IMG/VR virus record: IMGVR_UViG_3300046665_000306
Span: 1 to 64,000 of that record
From: an uncultured virus (IMG/VR IMGVR_UViG_3300046665_000306)
Taxonomy: Duplodnaviria > Heunggongvirae > Uroviricota > Caudoviricetes
Length of the DNA: 64,000 bases
Reading direction: 5' to 3' (one strand)
Each line of letters starts with the position of its first letter. Position 1 is the first letter of the stretch. The translations under genes were made by a program, and so were the position numbers. Shown here piece by piece: positions 833-35,299 of this stretch. The notes below the pieces were generated by a model that did no database searches, was not told the DNA's origin, and saw only the letters and a program-made list of their open reading frames with translations.

Positions 833-3007
833 TTAACTCCACTGCTGAACCGCACCTGAAATAAGGGCGTTCTTGTCGTTTAGGATTTGCACTCTGTATT
901 TCATAGAAGTGCCTGAAGGTTGAGACGTAATGCTAGCCGTGCCTTCGAACTGACGAATCCCATTATAGTTCTCGGTCAGAGCCAATGTGACGCTGGTCCA
1001 CGTCGTGCCGCCGTCGCGAGAAACTTGACCAATAATATCAGTGTTTGGCGTTAATGTGGCACTGCCTGTGACTTGAATCGAGAGACGCGAAGATGTAGGA
1101 ACGCTGAGCGCAGTGACTGGTACGGATTCTAAGGTGAGATCGGCGTAGTTGATATTGTTATTGCGGACTTCCAGTTCCGTTACAAAGTACCTTGTATTAG
1201 CCGTCGCTGCGGTATAACCGGTTACGACAGGCGTGCCAGCTTCCGTGACACTTGCTTTGAAGTAACTGGCGTAAGATGCTCCAATATCAGAAATAGATGG
1301 TAGATAATTAGAAACAGGCGTGTCAAAAGCTATGACGTGATCCGCGCCCATGCTAAATGTTATCCAATCACTCCACACCGAAGAGCTAGCTGGAATTGTA
1401 ACGTTATTCGCGCCGCCATTGAATGTCACACGTACCGGCGTAGAGCTAACTGTATCCATGTCCCAAACGTTGCCAGTAGCAGCTTTACGTCCGAAGAAAA
1501 CATTGTCTATGACGCCAGCACCGGCAGGGCCAGTGGTTAATTTTACTCTAAAAGCTGTTCCAATACTTAAAATACCGGTTCCATCTATAATAGTTCTAAG
1601 TGAGTATCTGGTAGATGCTGCGTTTGATATACCAGCAGCTACTGATAATACTTTAGTTCCAGCGCTTTTTGGAAAATAATAATCATTAGCGCTGTCGTAG
1701 ATTTGATTCGCAGTGGTAGTCCCGGTATATACTGCGTACGGAGCAGCGGGTGGGGTGAAATTGGAGGTCCAACGTGCAACCCTGCTGATTCTAAACTCAT
1801 CCAAGAACATCTGTGAACCAGTAGCATTATAATTTCTGCCAATCAGCGGTCTATTAGCTACTGCAATAACATTCATGTTATCCGTAAAGGTAGAACCCTC
1901 TTGCACACCATTGAGGTACATCTTAGTCACGTTGCCACTTCTAACAACGGCCATGTGATACCAAGTATTGGCTGTGATAAGGGTTGTGCCTGCAATGCTT
2001 GTCGAAGCATTGGTGCTGTAACTCAAGAAGTTAGCATTACTTACATACCAAGCAAAATTAGGATTCGGGGTGCCGGAACCGATTCGAGATTCATAAATAG
2101 TATCTTGAACACCAACAGCGGCGCGACGGAACCAACAATCGATAGTGAAATCACCAGTGCCAAACGCAAACCATGAATTTCCATCAGCTGCGTATGGTCC
2201 TCCATTGCCGCCAACACTTAGGCAAGAGCCTCCAAACTTGGATTGAGCAGTGGTAATCGTTGCAGTGCCCCAACATTCCCATGTAGGTATATTTATGCCA
2301 TGGTTGATGCCAAAACCGCTATCGATGATGGATTTTTTACCATTAACTCCATCGAAGTGAAGGCAAGTGATAGTATCAAAATCAATCCCGTTATTAACCG
2401 TTCCTAAATTAATACCATCTTCGGAATCATAAGGATCAGCAATGCCGCCAGCCATGCCGTTGCGGATACCTTTGATATCAGCCATGTCAAGAGCGAGAAT
2501 TGAAATATTACGATGCGCCATATCGACAGACGCTGCATTCACGGTGGCAAGATTTCCATTCGTGGTAATATTGCCTTCGATAGTCACTAGTGAAGATTCT
2601 AACGTGCCAGCGCCACGAGTGACAGTTGTTGTGGTATAATCACCAGAGACTGGAACAACGTTGCCCGATCTACCATTAAACGAAGCGACACCAGCAACAG
2701 CACCCGTTGCAACACCGGCCCAATATTTCGCACTGCGTTGTCCCGGAACAATTTCATTCGGGCTCTCGGCCCATAGCGAGGCTAAAGTGCTATAACCGCT
2801 GGCAGATGTTGCAGCGGCTTGTGCTTGCGTGACATAACCGCCAGCTGTGGTGCCAATCGTGGCATAGAATTTTGCAAGGCTAGGAACAACACCAGAATCA
2901 ATCGCAATGTCGAGAGTAGATGCGCCGTTAACAATATTGTTAAGGCGGTCCATATTGATTTCTAGTTTGTCAAGCTTGGCTTGAATCTCAGCGGAAGTTG
3001 CAGCCAT
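833..3007 (-). CDS. tail fibre / receptor-binding protein with LamG (ConA-like) domain
   Basis: 724 aa; VASFNGRSGNV fibre motif; GDFTIDCW..WYHMAVVR..MYLNG..DEFRIS LamG signature. Confidence 0.8.
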   Translation of the reverse strand: MAATSAEIQAKLDKLEINMDRLNNIVNGASTLDIAIDSGVVPSLAKFYATIGTTAGGYVTQAQAAATSASGYSTLASLWAESPNEIVPGQRSAKYWAGVATGAVAGVASFNGRSGNVVPVSGDYTTTTVTRGAGTLESSLVTIEGNITTNGNLATVNAASVDMAHRNISILALDMADIKGIRNGMAGGIADPYDSEDGINLGTVNNGIDFDTITCLHFDGVNGKKSIIDSGFGINHGINIPTWECWGTATITTAQSKFGGSCLSVGGNGGPYAADGNSWFAFGTGDFTIDCWFRRAAVGVQDTIYESRIGSGTPNPNFAWYVSNANFLSYSTNASTSIAGTTLITANTWYHMAVVRSGNVTKMYLNGVQEGSTFTDNMNVIAVANRPLIGRNYNATGSQMFLDEFRISRVARWTSNFTPPAAPYAVYTGTTTANQIYDSANDYYFPKSAGTKVLSVAAGISNAASTRYSLRTIIDGTGILSIGTAFRVKLTTGPAGAGVIDNVFFGRKAATGNVWDMDTVSSTPVRVTFNGGANNVTIPASSSVWSDWITFSMGADHVIAFDTPVSNYLPSISDIGASYASYFKASVTEAGTPVVTGYTAATANTRYFVTELEVRNNNINYADLTLESVPVTALSVPTSSRLSIQVTGSATLTPNTDIIGQVSRDGGTTWTSVTLALTENYNGIRQFEGTASITSQPSGTSMKYRVQILNDKNALISGAVQQWS

Positions 3008-3045
3008 TAAAAGTACCTTAAATAAAAATAGTGGTATAGCTTTGA

Positions 3046-3074
3046 ACTATACCACTATTTTTTAAAAAAGTCAA
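3046..3074 (-). promoter_or_regulatory. sigma70-like promoter
   Basis: TTGACT-17-TATAGT with extended -10 TG. Confidence 0.75.
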
Positions 3075-3097
3075 GTTTAAAGTTTATGATCCAAATT

Positions 3098-26893: not shown

Positions 26894-26976
26894 GCGCCCT
26901 TGGTGGAACTGGTAGACACAAGGGACTTAAAATCCCTCGCGAAAGCATACCGGTTCGAGTCCGGTAGGGCGTACCA
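26894..26976 (+). tRNA. tRNA-Leu(TAA)
   Basis: cloverleaf, loop CTTAAAA, long variable arm, encoded CCA. Confidence 0.95.
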
Positions 26977-26986
26977 CTTTATTATG

Positions 26987-27138
26987 AAACTGTTTAGGTG
27001 GGGAATGCTGGTTATGCTGATGACCTTGTTCCTTCAAGGTCTAATGAGGAAAGAAGTAGTTTCGAAGGCGGTTGCGACTGGCAGAGAAACATAAGGATAC
27101 TTGGTTCGATTCCCCTCAGTTCCCTTCCTAAACAGTTT
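26987..27138 (+). ncRNA. unknown structured RNA with pseudoknot and T-loop-like motif
   Basis: 12-bp closing stem AAACTGTTTAGG/CCTAAACAGTTT; GACCTTG/CAAGGTC; GGTTCGATTCC. Confidence 0.65.
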
Positions 27139-27251
27139 GCAGGGACCGGTTTATGGAGAATGGCGTATCCAGCCTTATGATAAAGGTTCCGGCTTCTTTG
27201 AGGTTGTTATCTCAGGGAACGAAGATGGTTTGATTCCATCCTGCAAGTCCA
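27136..27251 (+). ncRNA. tRNA-like RNA with expanded D-domain and long anticodon-position arm
   Basis: TTTGCAG/CTGCAAG-T-CCA; T arm GATGG-TTTGATT-CCATC. Confidence 0.7.
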
Positions 27252-27270
27252 GTTTTGAATGTTAAAGTTT

Positions 27271-27419
27271 GGCTCAACCTGAATTAACAGGTACTGAACC
27301 GCTGGAACAGAGGCACGAAGCCTTGATCGAGCGGAATGGATAAAGTAAATGAAACTCACGTAGAACGCCTATATGGCAAAGTGACGCAGAGATAACATTG
27401 CTTCGGTCCAGCCTTTTTT
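27271..27419 (+). ncRNA. candidate structured RNA
   Basis: several hairpins, GGCT/AGCC closing, ends in T6; non-coding gap between RNA genes. Confidence 0.45.
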
Positions 27420-27422
27420 CTT

Positions 27423-27496
27423 GGGCCTATAGCTTAATGGTAAAGCAATCGGCTTTTAACCGATTGACCTGAGTTCAATTCTCAGTGGGCCTACCA
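27423..27496 (+). tRNA. tRNA-Lys(TTT)
   Basis: cloverleaf, loop CTTTTAA, encoded CCA. Confidence 0.95.
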
Positions 27497-27524
27497 CATT
27501 TAATTTAGAAACTTTGATTATATA

Positions 27525-28082
27525 ATGACTAAAGAAAAATTAAGAAAATTAAATGGTTATGTTCTGAGATACGAACCAGATTATCCTAAATCTTTTACTA
27601 GTGGAGAAGCCGGTAGAAACGGGCATGAAGGATATGTTTATGAACATATTTATGTTATGGAAAAAGAGTTGGGGCGCGTTTTAGTAAGTGATGAAGAGGT
27701 ACATCATCTCGATTTTAACAGGTCCAATAACACTCCTTCAAATTTAATTGTATTAAGTTCTTCACATCATAGTAGATTACATAGATATTTAGAATCTATT
27801 GGTTTACAGGAAGAAAGTGCAGAACATAAGGATAGAATTTATACTTATATACCACGATGTGTTGTTTGTCTATACCCATTGCAAGATAAACAAAAACAAA
27901 CGTGCAGTTTGATTTGCCGGTCAGAAAGCTCCAACTTAAACAAGCCAGATAAGATAACTTTGGAAGAGGAATTAAAATACAATTCCATGGTTGCTTTATC
28001 CAAGAAATATGGTATGAGTGATAATGGGTTGAAGAAATACGCGAAGAGGATGGGCATTCAATTTCCTCTCAAGCGGAACTAA
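27525..28082 (+). CDS. HNH homing-type endonuclease with Zn-finger and C-terminal HTH
   Basis: YVYEH...EEVHHLDFNRSNNTPSNL; CxxC..CSxxC; AT-rich. Confidence 0.85.
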   Translation: MTKEKLRKLNGYVLRYEPDYPKSFTSGEAGRNGHEGYVYEHIYVMEKELGRVLVSDEEVHHLDFNRSNNTPSNLIVLSSSHHSRLHRYLESIGLQEESAEHKDRIYTYIPRCVVCLYPLQDKQKQTCSLICRSESSNLNKPDKITLEEELKYNSMVALSKKYGMSDNGLKKYAKRMGIQFPLKRN

Positions 28083-28090
28083 TTAAAAGT

Positions 28091-28210
28091 TTGCGTAGAT
28101 CGAAAGCGTTACCGATTCTTGGTTGTTGTTTTATAGAACCGGTAATTAATTCAGGAAGACTGCCTTAGCGGGTAGGAGGACTCAAGAGTAACAACCTGAG
28201 AGTCGCGCAA
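28091..28210 (+). ncRNA. unknown multibranched RNA with loop-loop pseudoknot
   Basis: TTGCGT/GCGCAA closing; GGTTGTTGTT complementary to AGTAACAACC. Confidence 0.6.
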
Positions 28211-28217
28211 TTCATAC

Positions 28218-28387
28218 GTGCTGTCTAATCAACAGCTAGTCGGAGGGTGGCACTTCGATGAATAGAAGTCGCTGTGATGGTGACAACCAAATCGCTCCTG
28301 TATCCGGGTAGGATCGTGGTGTGCCCGCGTAGGCTAAACATCGTGGAGGAGCTTGTAAAGTTCTGTTGAAGCGGGATTAGCCAGCAC
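28218..28387 (+). ncRNA. unknown multibranched RNA
   Basis: GTGCTG.CTAATC/GATTAG.CAGCAC closing stem; several internal hairpins. Confidence 0.6.
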
Positions 28388-28409
28388 TTAAATTTAAGAG
28401 GGTCTTGGT

Positions 28410-28670
28410 ATGATTATTAAACTGCTTGAAGAAAATTGGGATAAAATACTGCAAATCGGTGTAGAAGCAGAGCAGAGGATGAAGGCTTATATGGCTGGTA
28501 ATGTCATCTTTGAAGGGGTAACTCTTAAAGGCAAGAACCGAATCAACGAACACGGCGCGTGCTGGAAAGTTGTTGACACGCGAGACGGAAAAGTGCTATT
28601 CGAGGCTCTTAATACTGGATACCTGAAGTGGGGTCCAGAGCCAGATTTTAGGATCGTAGAGAGGGATTAG
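28410..28670 (+). CDS. hypothetical protein
   Basis: 86-aa ORF; LKGKNRINEHG. Confidence 0.7.
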   Translation: MIIKLLEENWDKILQIGVEAEQRMKAYMAGNVIFEGVTLKGKNRINEHGACWKVVDTRDGKVLFEALNTGYLKWGPEPDFRIVERD

Positions 28671-28674
28671 CATC

Positions 28675-28875
28675 ATGGGTGAGACCATTCTTATATATGA
28701 TGAGCGTTACGAAAGCGGGCCAAGATTTATTGGTTCGTTCAGGAACGTGCCAGAGGATTGGACCGCGAAAGAAACGCTGGTCCGTTACGGGATAGGTGAG
28801 CATCTGTGCGTGTATCGCGACAACTTCGTACCTAAGAATTGTATTCATCACGGAAAAAGATTTAGATCGGATTAA
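28675..28875 (+). CDS. hypothetical protein
   Basis: 66-aa ORF in operon. Confidence 0.6.
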   Translation: MGETILIYDERYESGPRFIGSFRNVPEDWTAKETLVRYGIGEHLCVYRDNFVPKNCIHHGKRFRSD

Positions 28876-28876
28876 T

Positions 28877-29086
28877 ATGAAAGATCAGTTTGGTTATACT
28901 CCCAATACGGGAGAAAGTTATCCACCATATTTTAATATTACTAAAGTTGATGGTGGGTATCGTGTGATAGTCAGGCGTAAAGCCGTTTGGGATGGTGATC
29001 TTTGTCTTCCCATGGGTGGTAATATTGTGGAAGAAACCTTCCCTGAAGATTTCATTGAGAAACTGAAAGAGTTTGTCAATGGCTAA
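28877..29086 (+). CDS. hypothetical protein
   Basis: ATG right after upstream stop. Confidence 0.65.
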   Translation: MKDQFGYTPNTGESYPPYFNITKVDGGYRVIVRRKAVWDGDLCLPMGGNIVEETFPEDFIEKLKEFVNG

Positions 29087-29405
29087 AAAGGTTGGAAATT
29101 ATAAAATTCCGTTTGATGAAATTGGGAATCAGTTACACTATCCCGGTTGGCATTGGTTTGACGGCAAGCGTTTCGAATGTGAGATGCGTGATAATCACGC
29201 CTTTGAAGATACAATAATCTTTGATTCTATGGAGCGTGGTCGGAGCGCTGCATATTTCTATTTTAAGCGATCCACAGGTGAAAGACTTGTTGTCTTCATG
29301 AAAGATTTATGCGATATGATGCCTCACGTTGTCAATGGCACAGTGACTGGCACGTTCACTTTCGTTAAGCGTGGTGCTAATTTTGGCACGGCATTAATCA
29401 GTTAA
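29079..29405 (+). CDS. hypothetical phage protein
   Basis: RGRSAAYFYF..FTFVKRGANFG motif. Confidence 0.75.
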   Translation: MAKKVGNYKIPFDEIGNQLHYPGWHWFDGKRFECEMRDNHAFEDTIIFDSMERGRSAAYFYFKRSTGERLVVFMKDLCDMMPHVVNGTVTGTFTFVKRGANFGTALIS

Positions 29406-29412
29406 AAGTTAA

Positions 29413-29487
29413 GGCTCCTTAGCTCAGTGGAAGAGCAGCGGTCTTCTAAACCGCAGGTCGCTGGTTTGAATCCAGCAGGAGTCGCCA
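29413..29487 (+). tRNA. tRNA-Arg(TCT)
   Basis: cloverleaf, loop CTTCTAA, T-loop variant TTTGAAT, CCA. Confidence 0.9.
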
Positions 29488-29492
29488 AATTC

Positions 29493-29569
29493 AGCCGTGT
29501 AGCTTAGCGGTCCAAAGCCGTCGGCTCATAACCGATTGATCCTGTGTTCGAATCACAGCATGGCTACCA
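29493..29569 (+). tRNA. tRNA with CAT anticodon (Met or Ile2)
   Basis: cloverleaf, loop CTCATAA, CCA; paired 1:72 argues against initiator. Confidence 0.9.
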
Positions 29570-30237: not shown

Positions 30238-32238
30238 ATGACAACAGATTTCAGACCATTCGCAAAGGCTATTCGTGCCAATTTCGATGAGCTTTCGAAG
30301 CGTGAGCTTTACACCGTCAATATTTCAGGTGACGAACTGTGGGATTTTTATCTCGATTCATTTCCGGCTGGTACGAACGAAATGTTTCGCCAGCGCCGCG
30401 AGTATGACTGCTCGTGCTGCAAAAATTTCATGCGCAACGTGGCTAACGTTGTTGCTATCGTTGACAATCAGCTTGTCTCGGTTTGGGACATTGCTGATGC
30501 GGGTCATCCGTTCAACGTGGTATGCGAAGCTCTTTCTGAGAAGGTTAAGAGCCTCGGTGTTTCTAACGTTTTCCGCACCAAGGAGAATTCTTTTGGTGCC
30601 GAAATGACGCGGGAATTTGGTGACGGAACAAACATCAACTGGAACCATTTCAACACTAAGATTGCTTCCAAGCATATCTGCGCCGAAGTGGCAACGATCA
30701 AGGGCAAGAAGGCTACGGCGGCTCAGGTCTTCCGTCGCGCTCTGGAAGAGCTTGATAATCGTGCCGTGACAACGGTGCAGGAATTGATCAAGGATGATCT
30801 GCTGTATCGAGGAATGGAGCACAAGGCGGCTGTGGATGCATTCGCTAAGGTTCAGCGTGAGTACAACAAGCTCAATTCTGATGAGGCGCGCAGCATCTTC
30901 ATTTGGGCTAATATCGATAGCTTTGTTGCTGGTTTCCGCAACACGGTAATCGGAACATTGGTGCAGGACTTGACCGAAGGCAAGGATTTGGAAAAGGCTG
31001 TTAGCTCTTTCGAGACAAAGATGGCGGGTGACAATTACAAGCGATCCAAGACTCTCATCACGCCAAGCATGATTAAGGACGCGATGAAGACAATCGAGGC
31101 TCTTAACCTTGAAACGGCCTTGGAACGTCGATTTGCTCGAATTGGTGACGTTACTGTAAATAATGTTCTTTGGGTCGATAACTCTGTCAAGGGAAAGATG
31201 AAGGGTGGTATCGAATCGCTTCTCATGGAAGCTGCTGTGACAAAGGCTCCGAACGTTGATAGGGCTGAGAACATCGGTATCGAAGCATTTATGGCTGACG
31301 TGGTGCCGAAGGCAAAGTCGATTGAAGCTCTGGTCAAGAATGCTTTTGCCGGTAATTTCATGAGCCTTACCGCTCCGGTTCACGATGATGTGGAGCAGCT
31401 TTTCAAGTGGAATAACAACTTCGGTTGGAGCTATGACGGCGATATTGCTGACTCTGATATCAAGATGCGGGTATCTAAGGCTGGTGGTAACGTCACTAAC
31501 GCTGTGCTTCGTATCAGCTTGGCTTGGTTCAACTTTGACGATCTGGATATCCATGTCTTTGAGCCTAGTGGAAGACAGATTTCTTTCCGTAACAAGGATG
31601 GAAAACTTGACGTTGATATGAATGCTGGAGGCTCTAATACGCGCCAGCCGGTTGAGAACGTTAGCTACACAAAAGCTAATATTCAAAATGGTGTTTACAC
31701 TGTCAAGATCAATCAGTTTCGTGTTCGCGAAGACAAAGATTTTGGTTTTGATCTTGAAGTTGAAAACAATGGTTCGATCCATAATTTCAACTATACCAAG
31801 CGTGTCACTGGTACGGTTAATGCGTTGAGGATCACGGTCAAGGATGGCGTTGTCGTAAATATTGAGGCTGGTGCTGGTATTACTGGTGGTATGACGCCGC
31901 AGGAAAAGTGGGGTGTTAAGACTGAAACTTTGGTGCCTGTCGATACTATCATTCTCAGCCCTAACTATTGGGATGATAATGCAACAGGTAACAAGCATTG
32001 GTTCTTTATTCTGAAGAACTGCTTGAATCCTGAACCGACTCGTGGTATTTATAATGAATTCCTACGGTCAGGTCTGGAACAACATCGGAAGGTGTTCGAA
32101 GTGCTCGGATCAAAGACCAAGTGCGAATCATCTGATGATCAGCTGAGTGGTATTGGTTTCAGTTCCACGAAGCGCGCCGAACTGCCTGTACTGGTCAAGG
32201 CTTCTACGGGTCAGAAACTTTACAACATTAACTTTTAA
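30238..32238 (+). CDS. large phage protein with CSCC motif and YfaP/DUF2135-like domain
   Basis: YDCSCCKNF; LRISLAW..DDLDIHV.EP..LDVDMNAGG..PVENV. Confidence 0.75.
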   Translation: MTTDFRPFAKAIRANFDELSKRELYTVNISGDELWDFYLDSFPAGTNEMFRQRREYDCSCCKNFMRNVANVVAIVDNQLVSVWDIADAGHPFNVVCEALSEKVKSLGVSNVFRTKENSFGAEMTREFGDGTNINWNHFNTKIASKHICAEVATIKGKKATAAQVFRRALEELDNRAVTTVQELIKDDLLYRGMEHKAAVDAFAKVQREYNKLNSDEARSIFIWANIDSFVAGFRNTVIGTLVQDLTEGKDLEKAVSSFETKMAGDNYKRSKTLITPSMIKDAMKTIEALNLETALERRFARIGDVTVNNVLWVDNSVKGKMKGGIESLLMEAAVTKAPNVDRAENIGIEAFMADVVPKAKSIEALVKNAFAGNFMSLTAPVHDDVEQLFKWNNNFGWSYDGDIADSDIKMRVSKAGGNVTNAVLRISLAWFNFDDLDIHVFEPSGRQISFRNKDGKLDVDMNAGGSNTRQPVENVSYTKANIQNGVYTVKINQFRVREDKDFGFDLEVENNGSIHNFNYTKRVTGTVNALRITVKDGVVVNIEAGAGITGGMTPQEKWGVKTETLVPVDTIILSPNYWDDNATGNKHWFFILKNCLNPEPTRGIYNEFLRSGLEQHRKVFEVLGSKTKCESSDDQLSGIGFSSTKRAELPVLVKASTGQKLYNINF

Positions 32239-32281: not shown

Positions 32282-32689
32282 ATGACTGACATTAACATTT
32301 TTGAATTCGCTACACGTGAAAAGCTTCGTTTCGACTCTTCCGTTGGTTCGCTCACGGTGGAGCAGCTTTGGGACTTGCCGCTGACTTCGATCGGTTCTAA
32401 GGCTAATCTGAATGCCGTTGGTATTCAGTTCGTCAAGGCTCTGAAGTCTGTCAATGAAGACTCTCTGGTCAATCCGGCTCCGACTGGTGCACAGAAGGTG
32501 TTCCAGATTCAGCTTGATATCGTGAAGCACATCATTGCTGTGAAGCAGGAAGAAGAGGCGGCAAAGAAGGAAGCTGCTGAGAAGAAGGTCCGGAAGGCTA
32601 AGTTGCAGGAAGCCTTGGCTCGTAAGGAAGATTCTGCGCTGGAAGAAATGACTCCGGCTGAACTTAAGAAGATGATCGCAGAGCTTTGA
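32282..32689 (+). CDS. coiled-coil protein, probable partner of upstream gene
   Basis: IFEFATREKLRF...VEQLWDLPL; SD AAAGGAG. Confidence 0.75.
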   Translation: MTDINIFEFATREKLRFDSSVGSLTVEQLWDLPLTSIGSKANLNAVGIQFVKALKSVNEDSLVNPAPTGAQKVFQIQLDIVKHIIAVKQEEEAAKKEAAEKKVRKAKLQEALARKEDSALEEMTPAELKKMIAEL

Positions 32690-33021
32690 TTACCAGTTCA
32701 GAGATAGCGGTTTACATGGTTTCCGGGGGCGCTGTAGCCCTCGGATTTCTTGCATGTGTGTGGCAAAGGTTTTGGCCAGAAAGGATTAACATGGCAGAAG
32801 AAAGTCGATACTACTGCTACGAAGTTCGGATAAGCGTGCAGTCACCGGATGATAAATTAGAACGCTTAATTCTGACGTTCTTGGTAGACGATTTCCAAGA
32901 GATTGAGGCTTTGGAAGAGCAGTCACAGAAATCCCAAGCGAAATTCTTAGTGGAGGGATATACGCTGAAGGCTATTCGCACCTCAGATGATATTCTTGCT
33001 TTGGTAGGCGAACTACATTGA
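32686..33021 (+). CDS. hypothetical protein with N-terminal TM (start uncertain)
   Basis: TTGA coupling. Confidence 0.55.
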   Translation: MITSSEIAVYMVSGGAVALGFLACVWQRFWPERINMAEESRYYCYEVRISVQSPDDKLERLILTFLVDDFQEIEALEEQSQKSQAKFLVEGYTLKAIRTSDDILALVGELH

Positions 33022-33176
33022 ATAACAAAAAGGCCTTCAGGATTTGGTTTCTGAAGGCCTTTTCTATTATAGTTCTTTTTAGATTTTAGGATTTTAATCC
33101 TAAATTGTGGTTGCTCTAACTCGCGCGCCATAGGGCTTCGCTTAGCTGGTAGCTCTTTCTGCTTGGGCTTGCTCAT
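32817..33176 (-). CDS. ArfA-like small basic protein, ORF cut by internal terminator
   Basis: SPMARELEQPQFRIKILKSKKNYNRKG resembles ArfA P.FR....K.KK..Y.RKG; SD AGAGG. Confidence 0.55.
   Translation of the reverse strand: MSKPKQKELPAKRSPMARELEQPQFRIKILKSKKNYNRKGLQKPNPEGLFVIQCSSPTKARISSEVRIAFSVYPSTKNFAWDFCDCSSKASISWKSSTKNVRIKRSNLSSGDCTLIRTS
33027..33063. terminator. bidirectional intrinsic terminator
   Basis: AAAAAGGCCTTCAG...CTGAAGGCCTTTT between convergent blocks. Confidence 0.85.
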
Positions 33177-34884
33177 CTTTCATCCTCTTCTCTCTTATCT
33201 TTCTCTTCTCTTCCATTTCCTTTTCGATGGCACGTTCTACCATACCTTGTTTGACTTCGCTAGAGGGTGAAGAGCCAGAACCATGAAGTTTTTTAGTTCC
33301 AACTTTTCTGGTTCGGCCTCTGGCCCACTCTAAATATTGACTGGTACTATCGACCATGTCGTCATTCTTGCCATATGGAAACGCCATTAGTTCGCGTTCA
33401 TACTCGGCCAGCCACGTAGCTGATTCGGGGAGATAAACCAAGCCAGCTTCGAAGGATGGAGCGACGGCATCGAACCTGAATTCTTTAGAGTTATTGTTTG
33501 TGCTAATTGGGATGATCGGGATGTTAGTTTTACCGGCTCTGGTTTGCACGTACTGAGTGCCCGAACCTTTATCTTCGATCAGAATGCACGAAACGTTCCA
33601 ACGTTCCGCAGTCTCATCAATGAGTTTGCACATCTCGGGGAATTCAACTTTTGCTCTAACACAATCTAAGAGATAATGCAAGCCAAATTCTGTTTCCATC
33701 CAAACAGTGAGTGCGGTAAAGTCGTGACGTTCTTGAGCCTTCTGCGCCGTATCGACTGAGAGAGTGATGCGTCGAATTTTGATTTCAGGGTTTTTCCTTA
33801 CATCGCCTTTATAACGTTGGAACCAATCTGATTTAAGTAGAACGCCTTCAGCGTCAACCGGGACGCCTTGCATCATAGAGCCCCACATTGCTCCTGTGAG
33901 TGTGGCGCGCTTATTTAGGTAATCCTGATGGTAAAAGTCCCACAACGGCATGTCAGGCTCTGTGCGGCCCATAGGATCGTCTTCATCACCAAGCTCGGAT
34001 AAAGCTTTTAGATTGATAATCTCGTAAGGGATAATGCTTCCCTTTTTACCTTCAACTTCTAGCCTGCCAATCATGTCGTCAGAGTTATAACGAGTGTTGA
34101 CGAGAACAATAGGAGCGCGGGGCAAGAGTCGGGTCTGGAAGTCAGATAGGAACCACGAATAAGCGTCGTCTCTGACTTTAGGATTTTGAGCTTCTAAGTA
34201 ACTTGCATAAAGGTCATCGATGCAACCCATGTTGGCGCGGATACCCATGATACCAGCGCCGACGCCTTTAGCGACATATTCGGATTTATTGGTCAGAGCC
34301 CAACGATCACCGGCTCTCATGTCGGCTTGGAGCGCTACGTCGCCAAACACGTCTTTGAAAGCATCACTGTTGACATAGGCTTTAGTTTTCTTGCCTAGTT
34401 CATTCGTGGCGAACGCAGCGGCATAGCTAGCCTGAAGCCATTTAGTCTTTCTACGACCCATGCACCAAACGGCAAAGCGGCGGGAAGAGTATTCACTCTT
34501 TCCACCACCGGCAGGAACGCTAAGTGCTAATCGAGGGATGTTCCCGTTCTCAACATTTTCCAGCTTTTCGCAGATGAAATGATGGTGAGGAGCGGGTGGC
34601 TCATCCATGTTCAAGTATTCAGCAAAACATGAATAACTACTAAACGCTGCGCCGCGAAGCTTTTCTTTGTATTCGTCTTCGTAATGCTCAAGAACTTGTT
34701 GTACACCTTGAAGCTGATTTTCAGGAACTGCTGTCTTCGTCAGGTTCACTATTGCTGATGACAAGTGTGTCGGAATCGGGGATTTCAATCGCAAATGGTC
34801 TTGGAGAGCTTCTTCCATCGTGCGAAGATTCTTTATTGATGACCTGTATATTAATCTGTCGTTCCAACTGAGGTAGTTTGTCAT
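33142..34884 (-). CDS. terL: terminase large subunit (start uncertain)
   Basis: Walker A PAGGGKSE, Walker B GCIDD, nuclease LSVDTA..DFTA..NDDMVD. Confidence 0.92.
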   Translation of the reverse strand: MTNYLSWNDRLIYRSSIKNLRTMEEALQDHLRLKSPIPTHLSSAIVNLTKTAVPENQLQGVQQVLEHYEDEYKEKLRGAAFSSYSCFAEYLNMDEPPAPHHHFICEKLENVENGNIPRLALSVPAGGGKSEYSSRRFAVWCMGRRKTKWLQASYAAAFATNELGKKTKAYVNSDAFKDVFGDVALQADMRAGDRWALTNKSEYVAKGVGAGIMGIRANMGCIDDLYASYLEAQNPKVRDDAYSWFLSDFQTRLLPRAPIVLVNTRYNSDDMIGRLEVEGKKGSIIPYEIINLKALSELGDEDDPMGRTEPDMPLWDFYHQDYLNKRATLTGAMWGSMMQGVPVDAEGVLLKSDWFQRYKGDVRKNPEIKIRRITLSVDTAQKAQERHDFTALTVWMETEFGLHYLLDCVRAKVEFPEMCKLIDETAERWNVSCILIEDKGSGTQYVQTRAGKTNIPIIPISTNNNSKEFRFDAVAPSFEAGLVYLPESATWLAEYERELMAFPYGKNDDMVDSTSQYLEWARGRTRKVGTKKLHGSGSSPSSEVKQGMVERAIEKEMEEKRKIREKRMKDEQAQAERATS

Positions 34885-35299
34885 TTGATGGTAGCATCTT
34901 ATTGTTGTTATTATTATGTGCTGGTTCACGACCTACGCGGTTAAGCTCTGCCATGTCTCTGAGAATGATTGCTCCATTCTTCAGATCGTCAATCTCGATA
35001 GCCTTGTTCAAAAGTCTGACGTATTCTTTATTGATCCAGTCCAGATCAATTTCTTCGTGGTCTGTTTTACGCAGCGGGAGAGGAGGTGCGACGGATAGCA
35101 TTTCTTTTTCCGCAGTTTTCATTTTTAATTCTTGAATTCTTGCCGCGACTTCGGGAGTGCTGGCAAGCTTCGAAGCATTAGCAGCAGCTGTGGTGTTCTT
35201 GCAAGTAAAACCTGCTTCTTTGTAAGCCGCGATTTGAGTATAACCATTCACCAAGTAGTTAGCGAACTTTTCTCTTTTGTCGGATGAAAGTCTAGCCAT
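34721..35299 (-). CDS. terS: terminase small subunit
   Basis: KREKFA....G.TQIAAYKEAGF...ANASKL...V.ARIQEL HTH pattern; upstream of terL. Confidence 0.8.
   Translation of the reverse strand: MARLSSDKREKFANYLVNGYTQIAAYKEAGFTCKNTTAAANASKLASTPEVAARIQELKMKTAEKEMLSVAPPLPLRKTDHEEIDLDWINKEYVRLLNKAIEIDDLKNGAIILRDMAELNRVGREPAHNNNNNKMLPSNDKLPQLERQINIQVINKESSHDGRSSPRPFAIEIPDSDTLVISNSEPDEDSSS

What the first reader, a model, noticed from the sequence alone, without database searches (positions are those of the whole stretch)
33020..33176. Phage ArfA-like gene whose mRNA is cut short by an in-frame terminator (nonstop design)
Seen: the ORF starts in the terL tail with SD AGAGG and encodes SPMARELEQPQFRIKILKSKKNYNRKG. 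The terminator at 33027-33063 falls right after this motif with no stop codon before it; the stop is at 32817, deep in the convergent gene. Established knowledge: ArfA has a P.FR....K.KKGKGSY.RKG core and is made from nonstop mRNA, so it accumulates only when tmRNA is limiting. The GKGS segment is missing here. Inference: a phage-encoded, tmRNA-gated ribosome-rescue or ribosome-binding factor, fitting the tRNA-like RNA theme.
Basis: partly seen in the sequence, partly recalled or inferred. Interest (0 to 1): 0.7.

Follow-up and report, generated by a model that had tools for sequence, protein, structure and literature searches.

The report
Phage ArfA-like gene lacking a stop
A tiny, very basic phage gene tucked behind the DNA-packaging genes is a distant relative of the bacterial ribosome-rescue factor ArfA, and its transcription terminator sits inside the reading frame, so its message should have no stop codon, the same trick bacteria use to switch ArfA on only when their main rescue system is overloaded.

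Summary
The ORF at 33176-32817 (-) starts inside the terL tail behind AGAGG. A strong hairpin plus T-run (33063-33021; -22.3 kcal/mol, z -6.6) lies in frame right after ...YNRK, and the first stop is 240 nt further on.

The gene is real. A profile of 25 relatives from outside its clade picks it as the single hit among 2,683 ORFs of the phage (E 1.8e-14). It matches phrog_20887, and most relatives match Pfam DUF7230.

The family is homologous to ArfA: hhalign gives 93% (E 3e-7) over ArfA 8-48, and every PDB hit of the family profile is ArfA. It lacks GKG, and this peptide also lacks ArfA's KH motif.

The stop-less layout recurs in other lineages:
- phiN3/phiM12 have a terminator inside the ORF.
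- One clade has a long hairpin there.
- In another clade a tRNA gene starts exactly after YKRK.

However, 40 of 54 unique relatives have ordinary stops.

Rescue activity, RF2 recruitment and tmRNA gating are inferred, not shown. No paper found mentions DUF7230, and one paper annotates a pelagiphage ArfA-domain gene. This scan has noted the family on other DNA several times.

The parts
33184..33188 (-). Shine-Dalgarno-like AGAGG, 7 nt before the ATG
   Evidence: Read directly
32817..33176 (-). Formal ORF of 119 codons (stop included). Only about the first 50 codons are expected on terminated transcripts.
   Evidence: In relatives the stop lies at 53 and 69 codons and the tails are unrelated.
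33060..33143 (-). Conserved DUF7230/ArfA-like core, K12-K39 (KRSPMARELEQPQFRIKILKSKKNYNRK)
   Evidence: HMM built from 25 relatives outside the clade: 50.6 bits, E 1.8e-14, top of 2,683 ORFs. phrog_20887 E 8.7e-10. Aligns to ArfA 8-48.
33021..33063 (-). Intrinsic terminator inside the ORF: 13-14 bp stem, 10-nt loop, T5-G-TT tract. It also faces the convergent + strand gene, so it looks bidirectional.
   Evidence: dG -22.3, z -6.56. The stem is invariant in L006/L007 while the loop and the reading frame of the 5' arm differ.
33022..33176 (-). Predicted translated part of the stop-less mRNA (about 50-51 codons)
   Evidence: Inference from the position of the T-tract; the 3' end has not been mapped
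33142..34929 (-). terL (large terminase). Its last 35 nt overlap the start of the small gene.
   Evidence: Pfam Terminase_6C; phrog_38 2e-90
34721..35299 (-). terS (small terminase), upstream in the same transcription direction
   Evidence: phrog_51/641
32686..33021 (+). Convergent 111-codon ORF of unknown function, ending 6 nt from the hairpin
   Evidence: no Pfam or PHROG match; a homolog in L007 at 34% identity

Best explanation
This is the last gene of the terS-terL transcription unit of an uncultured rhizosphere phage. The record is 120 kb, about 66% complete, 44% G+C. The gene encodes a peptide of about 50 residues with a net charge near +10. The peptide belongs to the phage family phrog_20887 / Pfam DUF7230, a shortened branch of the ArfA (alternative ribosome-rescue factor A) superfamily.

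Translation starts inside the terL tail. The only terminator of the unit lies in frame directly after the conserved ...KSKKNYNRK block. Terminated transcripts therefore carry no stop codon, and the ribosome that makes the peptide stalls at the 3' end.

By analogy with arfA and brfA (inferred): while trans-translation has spare capacity, the nascent peptide is tagged by tmRNA and degraded. When tmRNA-SmpB is saturated, for instance late in infection when many messages are cut, the peptide is released untagged. It then threads its basic tail into the empty mRNA channel of other stalled ribosomes, and its L..P.FR.[KR][IV] segment helps dock a class I release factor (RF2 in ArfA) to free the ribosomes for phage protein synthesis.

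Shown: the gene, its family, its homology to ArfA, and the terminator in frame and its conservation. Inferred: the mRNA 3' end, tmRNA gating, ribosome binding and release-factor recruitment.
For: - Coding: window versus L007, over 27 core codons, shows 7 identical, 13 synonymous and 7 non-synonymous; versus L006, 17/7/3.
- Family: E 1.8e-14 for a profile that excludes the window's own clade, with the next ORF at E 1.5. phrog_20887 hits 28 of 28 members. DUF7230 hits 20 of 28 and 87 of 146 relatives. There are 1,534 cluster representatives at E<=1e-3 among 1.84 billion.
- ArfA homology: hhalign of the family (146 sequences) against ArfA gives Prob 93.1%, E 3.2e-7, 38 columns, ArfA 8-48, with one 3-residue gap. 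The 28-sequence profile gives Prob 82%, E 1.1e-5. The PDB profile search returns ArfA as the only 6 hits at E<=10 (best 5.7e-4), and as the top 6 of 17 with the smaller profile. The Pfam ArfA model hits 5 of 28 and 10 of 146 relatives below its cut-off. 23 of the 150 best representatives carry Y.RK.KH, as in ArfA's YMRKGKH.
- Design here: z -6.56 for the hairpin. L006 and L007 keep the same stem, with stops at different places behind it. The 5' arm is read in a different frame (GLQK versus RPSE) because of a +1 nt / -1 nt pair of indels, so the RNA rather than the peptide tail is conserved.
- Design elsewhere: phiN3/phiM12 have a GC hairpin plus T6 inside the ORF, 12 nt before the stop. L013/L017 have an 11-bp hairpin inside the ORF. 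In 4 of 4 unique sequences of the MTGNS clade with DNA in hand, a tRNA-Arg(UCU) starts 0 nt after the YKRK codon, and 17 of the 120 best proteins carry that tRNA-coded tail.
- Background: 7 of 237 long-ORF 3' ends in this phage fold at <= -18 kcal/mol, against 6 of 28 family members right after the motif.
- Established knowledge: arfA and brfA are made from stop-less mRNA and are repressed by trans-translation (review PMC8012679, passages read).
Against: - The window peptide has no direct Pfam ArfA, Pfam DUF7230 or NCBIfam hit at E<=10.
- It lacks the GKG insert and the KH motif that binds a pocket of the mRNA channel in ArfA and BrfA. Its tail after YNRK (GLQKPNPEGLFV) has only one basic residue.
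- ArfA cut to 40 residues is inactive (PMC8012679), so a short tail may matter.
- 40 of 54 unique relatives have an ordinary stop before any hairpin. The stop-less layout is therefore not a family-wide requirement and could be incidental at the end of an operon. Thirteen random codons escape a stop about half the time.
- The hairpin also serves the convergent gene, which alone could explain its conservation.
- L007's T-tract is weak (TTTCTGATT).
- No RNA data exist for this phage, and its host is unknown.
- The six structured family members represent only three lineages.
Confidence: 0.55

Rival explanations
1. The gene is a real DUF7230 peptide, but the terminator in frame is incidental. The small gene simply abuts the operon's shared bidirectional terminator, the tail is unimportant, and the peptide is made without any tmRNA gating. 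Its function is as in the ordinary-stop relatives, whatever that is.
For: 40 of 54 unique relatives end with an ordinary stop. The hairpin also terminates the convergent gene. Absence of a stop in 13 codons is not improbable by itself. The tail is not conserved as protein.
Against: The conserved block ends within -5 to +2 nt of a structure in four separate lineages, which use three different devices: terminator, long hairpin and tRNA 5' end. The homologous bacterial factor uses exactly this layout. A stop-less message cannot yield free peptide without a rescue pathway, so some coupling to rescue capacity is unavoidable if the message ends there.
Confidence: 0.2
2. The peptide binds the empty mRNA channel like ArfA but works as a blocker or competitor rather than as a release-factor recruiter. 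For example, it could keep tmRNA-SmpB off ribosomes or modulate host translation.
For: The basic channel-binding part (KSKK.Y.RK) is the best conserved. The window peptide lacks the KH motif, and ArfA's position A18 is not conserved. ArfA and SmpB binding sites overlap (PMC8012679 passage).
Against: The block shared with ArfA also covers residues 14-30. According to the review these form the helix at the decoding centre and the beta-strand added to RF2. Conservation of that part is not needed for a mere plug.
Confidence: 0.12
3. It is not a separate gene: either a chance ORF in the terL 3' region, or a frameshift extension of TerL.
For: It overlaps terL by 35 nt. It is not detected by Pfam or NCBIfam directly.
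Against: Profile E 1.8e-14 as the single hit in the genome. Synonymous changes exceed non-synonymous ones. Homologs stand alone, far from any terminase, in T4-like and other phages. The frame is closed one codon upstream of the ATG, and I saw no slippery heptamer in the overlap.
Confidence: 0.02

Closest known systems
ArfA (YhdL) of E. coli and other beta/gamma-proteobacteria; Pfam PF03889
   Same: - Small and basic.
- Alignable core (ArfA 8-48): N.I...L..P.FR.R[VI].K.KK...Y.RK.
- The gene carries a hairpin inside the ORF, so the mRNA lacks a stop (for E. coli arfA; PMC8012679).
   Different: - 3-residue deletion (GKG).
- No KH motif in this peptide.
- No hydrophobic C-terminal extension conserved.
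- The hairpin starts 5 nt before the end of the Y.RK motif, against about 27 nt after it in E. coli.
- The hairpin here is an intrinsic terminator shared with a convergent gene.
- Carried by a phage, at the end of the terminase operon.
- Below the Pfam ArfA threshold.
Pfam DUF7230 (PF23876) / phrog_20887: uncharacterised 35-70 aa phage proteins (e.g. phiM12 SmphiM12_363, Acinetobacter phage Ac42p003)
   Same: Same conserved block KRNP[IM]A..LR.P.[FY][RK].[RK]V[VI]K.K..Y.RK. phrog_20887 E 8.7e-10. 50% identity to the phiN3 protein.
   Different: - This is a divergent clade: S for N in RNP, I-L for V-V.
- It misses the Pfam model.
- It sits behind terL rather than in early or 'hypothetical' gene blocks.
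- It belongs to the stop-less minority of the family.
BrfA (YqkK) of Bacillus subtilis
   Same: A rho-independent terminator lies before the stop codon, and the active peptide is made from stop-less mRNA (PMC8012679).
   Different: The review says BrfA has no sequence likeness to ArfA beyond the KH motif. I did not compare sequences here.
Pelagiphage HTVC027P gp30, annotated ArfA (PF03889)
   Same: A phage-borne ArfA-domain gene, reported as highly expressed early and late in infection (PMC12753301, passage read).
   Different: The passage I read does not mention its mRNA layout. I did not fetch its sequence, so whether it is of the DUF7230 type is unknown.

Membership tests
ArfA (Pfam PF03889) | Match to the Pfam ArfA model at its gathering score (25.5 bits) | tested here: not met
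   The window peptide has no hit at E<=10. Relatives hit below the cut-off: 5 of 28 (best E 8.2e-4) and 10 of 146 (best 5.5e-4).
ArfA (Pfam PF03889) | Conserved core L..P.FR.RV.K.KK..Y.RK alignable over the RF2-contact and channel-binding parts | tested here: met
   hhalign Prob 93.1%, E 3.2e-7, ArfA 8-48. PDB: only ArfA hits. Window peptide alone: E 5.6e-4, Prob 30%.
ArfA (Pfam PF03889) | KGKGS segment before Y39 | tested here: not met
   3-residue gap at G35-K36-G37 in all alignments
ArfA (Pfam PF03889) | KH motif in the C-terminal tail (Y.RK.KH) | tested here: not met
   The window tail is YNRKGLQKPNPEG. The motif is present in 23 of the 150 best family representatives.
ArfA (Pfam PF03889) | Hairpin or terminator inside the ORF, so that the mRNA lacks an in-frame stop | tested here: met
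   Sequence level only. The real 3' end has not been mapped.
ArfA (Pfam PF03889) | Repression by tmRNA tagging; RF2-dependent release on stop-less ribosomes | not testable with these tools
   Needs experiments
DUF7230 (PF23876) / phrog_20887 | Match to the family profiles | tested here: met
   phrog_20887 E 8.7e-10. My own profile of 25 relatives outside the clade gives E 1.8e-14. The Pfam PF23876 model itself misses this peptide but hits 20 of 28 and 87 of 146 relatives. The nearest Atlas clusters are DUF7230 (0.91).
BrfA | Sequence relation to B. subtilis BrfA | not tested
   No BrfA sequence was fetched. Only the gene layout is compared, from the review.

The most novel reading that the evidence does not exclude
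DUF7230 is a very large phage-borne branch of the ArfA superfamily. It has arrived at stop-less expression several times by different RNA devices: an intrinsic terminator (this phage, phiM12/phiN3), a long processing hairpin, and a tRNA whose 5' processing would cut the message exactly after YKRK. Phages would thereby use saturation of the host's tmRNA system as a read-out of mRNA damage, whether from late infection or from attack by defence RNases, to switch on their own ribosome-rescue factor. This would include hosts such as the rhizobia, whose genomes I did not check for an arfA of their own.
Probability: 0.35. Interest if true: 0.85.

Novelty: new variant of a known kind. Interest (0 to 1): 0.66.

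Why it matters
ArfA-type rescue is regarded as a narrow beta/gamma-proteobacterial back-up system. A family with more than 1,500 sequence clusters in phages and metagenomes that is homologous to ArfA would make release-factor-dependent rescue a common phage function. It would also give a function to a 'hypothetical' or unannotated gene in cultured Sinorhizobium, Rhizobium, Agrobacterium and Acinetobacter phages.

The stop-less layout, reached by terminator, hairpin or tRNA processing, would be a natural sensor of rescue capacity. It is directly testable in cultured pairs such as phiM12 with S. meliloti. Searches for 'DUF7230' found no paper. Of the 12 papers holding 'rescue factor ArfA' and 'phage' (search listing only), the titles and abstract starts point to one on a phage gene, the pelagiphage paper, which was the only one I opened for this. 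This scan has noted the family on other DNA before.

Tried and rejected
- Direct family scans of the peptide (Pfam, NCBIfam) and PF03889 or RF-1 searches of the phage record: nothing.
- blastn of the region against 50,697 phage records: no match.
- Genome-contig scan with the family alignment: 45 pattern stretches, none confirmed. The confirmation step uses the divergent window peptide, so this does not show absence from bacteria.
- metagenome scan with the single peptide: none. The second scan, with the alignment, gave 66 loci.
- Sequencing runs: no RNA holder listed, only rhizosphere and one freshwater DNA run. I did not lay reads.
- Complex prediction: four references for RF2 of cognate or near-cognate hosts were not held. 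The one job, with E. coli RF2 as a stand-in and the window peptide, gave 'no answer' (score 0.01) and counts neither way.
The ArfA alignment therefore holds only enteric sequences of at least 80% identity, which limits the profile comparison.
- Rfam on the whole window: four tRNAs only. There is no tmRNA in the 120-kb record.
- TerL frameshift fusion: rejected (see rivals).
- In the design census, 11 of 104 loci were dropped because my motif pattern did not find the core: L036, L092, L103, L104, L106-L108, L110-L112, L114.
- Pootjesviridae homologs (OLIVR5, IC12, ORM_20, P10VF, RHph_N34) run into the convergent gene, but I saw no clear terminator. They are left unclassified.

Full report
**What is there**

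On the minus strand, an ORF starts at ATG 33176, 7 nt after AGAGG and inside the last 35 nt of terL (34929-33142). It reads MSKPKQKELPAKRSPMARELEQPQFRIKILKSKKNYNRKGLQKPNPEGLFV... for 119 codons and ends at 32817, deep inside the convergent ORF 32686-33021.

Directly after the YNRK codons lies a hairpin: arms 33063-51 and 33040-28, a 10-nt loop, then TTTTTGTT. It folds at -22.3 kcal/mol, z -6.56, and 0 of 200 shuffles fold as well. The pattern scanner missed it only because of the 10-nt loop. The gene order is terS, terL, small ORF, terminator, then the convergent gene.

**Is it a gene?**

Yes.

- tblastn of the first 51 residues against cultured phages found weak but repeated matches to small annotated ORFs in Sinorhizobium, Rhizobium/Agrobacterium and Acinetobacter phages. 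The best was phiN3, 50% identity, E 5e-4.
- IMG/VR gave 38 loci, of which 28 are unique peptides.
- A profile built from the 25 members outside the window's own clade scores the window ORF at 50.6 bits, E 1.8e-14. It is the single hit among all 2,683 stop-to-stop ORFs of at least 25 codons in the 120-kb record; the next best has E 1.5.
- phrog_20887 (unknown function) matches all 28 members, the window peptide at 8.7e-10.
- Pfam DUF7230 matches 20 of 28 and 87 of 146 relatives, though not the window peptide itself.
- Two relatives with the same layout behind an 88%-identical terL (L006, L007) show mostly synonymous change in the core. Window versus L007: 7 identical, 13 synonymous and 7 non-synonymous codons of 27.
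- The family is large: 1,637 proteins at E<=10 among 3,325 word-sharing candidates, and 1,534 cluster representatives at E<=1e-3 in 1.84 billion.

**Is it related to ArfA?**

The Pfam ArfA model does not hit the window peptide, but several lines link the family to ArfA.

- The 28-sequence profile searched against 177,635 PDB sequences returns six ArfA chains as its six best hits (E 0.03-0.065; the next is nitrile hydratase at 0.4).
- A 146-sequence profile returns only those six chains at E<=10, the best at 5.7e-4.
- hhalign against an alignment of 15 enteric ArfA sequences gives Prob 82% (E 1.1e-5) for the small profile and Prob 93.1% (E 3.2e-7) for the large one. It covers ArfA residues 8-48 with a single 3-residue gap at GKG.
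- The Pfam ArfA model hits 5 of 28 and 10 of 146 relatives below its cut-off.
- 23 of the 150 best representatives carry Y.RK.KH at the spacing of ArfA's YMRKGKH. The window peptide does not.

According to the review PMC8012679 (passages read), ArfA 15-24 is a helix at the decoding centre, a following beta-strand adds to RF2, and the basic tail with its KH motif lies in the mRNA channel. The shared block covers all three. I therefore take DUF7230 to be a shortened branch of the ArfA superfamily, and the window gene to be a divergent member of it.

**The stop-less layout**

In the window clade the stem is invariant, but the loop differs. The 5' arm is read in different frames (GLQK versus RPSE) through a +1/-1 pair of indels. 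The stops lie 45, 93 and 240 nt after the motif, with unrelated tails. What is conserved is therefore the RNA, not a peptide tail.

The same idea appears elsewhere.

- phiN3 and phiM12 have a GC hairpin plus T6 inside the ORF, 12 nt before the stop.
- Atu_ph07 keeps that stem without a T-run.
- L013/L017 have an 11-bp hairpin in frame and a second, canonical terminator after the stop.
- In the 'MTGNS' clade a tRNA-Arg(UCU) gene begins exactly at the nucleotide after the YKRK codon, in 4 of 4 unique sequences with DNA. 17 of the 120 best proteins end in the tRNA-coded tail. RNase P processing should leave a stop-less message there.

As background, 7 of 237 long-ORF 3' ends in this phage fold at <= -18 kcal/mol, against 6 of 28 family members just after the motif. 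Those six represent three lineages.

Against a family-wide rule stands the census of 104 loci. Eleven were dropped because my motif pattern failed, leaving 54 unique peptides. Of these, 40 have ordinary stops, 4 have the tRNA, 3 have a hairpin plus T-run, and 7 have a hairpin without a T-run, three or four of them weak. The layout is thus a recurrent minority trait.

**How it most likely works**

See Best explanation. The gene, its family, its homology and the RNA structure are shown. The 3' end, tmRNA gating, ribosome binding and release-factor recruitment are inferred from arfA and brfA.

Points that lower my confidence:
- no KH motif and a weakly basic tail in this peptide;
- ArfA 1-40 is inactive;
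- the hairpin also serves the convergent gene;
- the host is unknown. The best terL relatives, at about 40% identity, infect alphaproteobacteria and Microcystis. The DNA occurs in rhizosphere metagenomes.

**What is known**

- No paper in the library holds 'DUF7230'.
- Searches for ArfA with phage terms gave one relevant paper. PMC12753301 annotates pelagiphage HTVC027P gp30 as ArfA (PF03889) and reports high expression (passage read).
- Burroughs and Aravind 2019 (PMC6514570, passages read) widen ArfT, a different family.
- In GenBank phage records, every homolog listed in the three tblastn tables is 'hypothetical protein' or lies under no matching annotation.
- Earlier notes of this scan describe the same family on other DNA, including a tRNA-abutting case and an internal-terminator case. 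I reached the tRNA and terminator observations before reading them, and they agree.

**Verdict**

This is a real, unannotated phage gene: a new variant of the ArfA kind with an ArfA/BrfA-style stop-less layout. Its function is plausible but untested.

Noticed in passing
L009 1471-1667; L011 1465-1661; also L010, L053, L066: In the 'MTGNS...' clade of the family, a tRNA-Arg(UCU) gene starts at the very next base after the YKRK codon. The formal ORF ends at the TAA of the anticodon loop. Three more tRNAs follow downstream in L009-L011.
   Followed up: partly
L001 / L002 (phiN3, phiM12), 1492-3087: The phiM12/phiN3 homolog sits just upstream of a methyltransferase and a RelA/SpoT-family gene, which are other translation- or stress-linked functions.
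   Followed up: no
L048 401-556 (Agrobacterium phage Atu_ph07): An unannotated 51-codon family member. It has the same ATCGCCGG/CCGGCGAT stem as phiM12 inside the ORF, but no T-run follows.
   Followed up: partly
L043-L047 (OLIVR5, IC12, ORM_20, P10VF, RHph_N34): In these Pootjesviridae-type phages the family ORF is unannotated or overlapped by opposite-strand calls, and it reads on into the convergent gene, as in the window. I saw no clear terminator.
   Followed up: partly
L012, L022, L027, L050, L057 and others; L031-L041, L075, L096 and others: Two marine clades carry conserved extra tails (WTPTKGLLQML; LLEECKEI.GKW) and ordinary stops. These extensions to the ArfA-like core are under selection.
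   Followed up: no
P0306 (180 aa), P0377 (135 aa), P0283, P0337: A few cluster representatives carry the module at the end or start of a longer protein. These may be fusions or wrong gene calls.
   Followed up: no
window 30238-32238 (+): A 666-residue protein matching phrog_1735 (unknown function, 783 bits) end to end, followed by a phrog_2018 protein.
   Followed up: no
window 26894-29569 (+): A cluster of four tRNA genes: Leu-UAA, Lys-UUU, Arg-UCU, Met-CAU. There is no tmRNA anywhere in the 120-kb record.
   Followed up: yes
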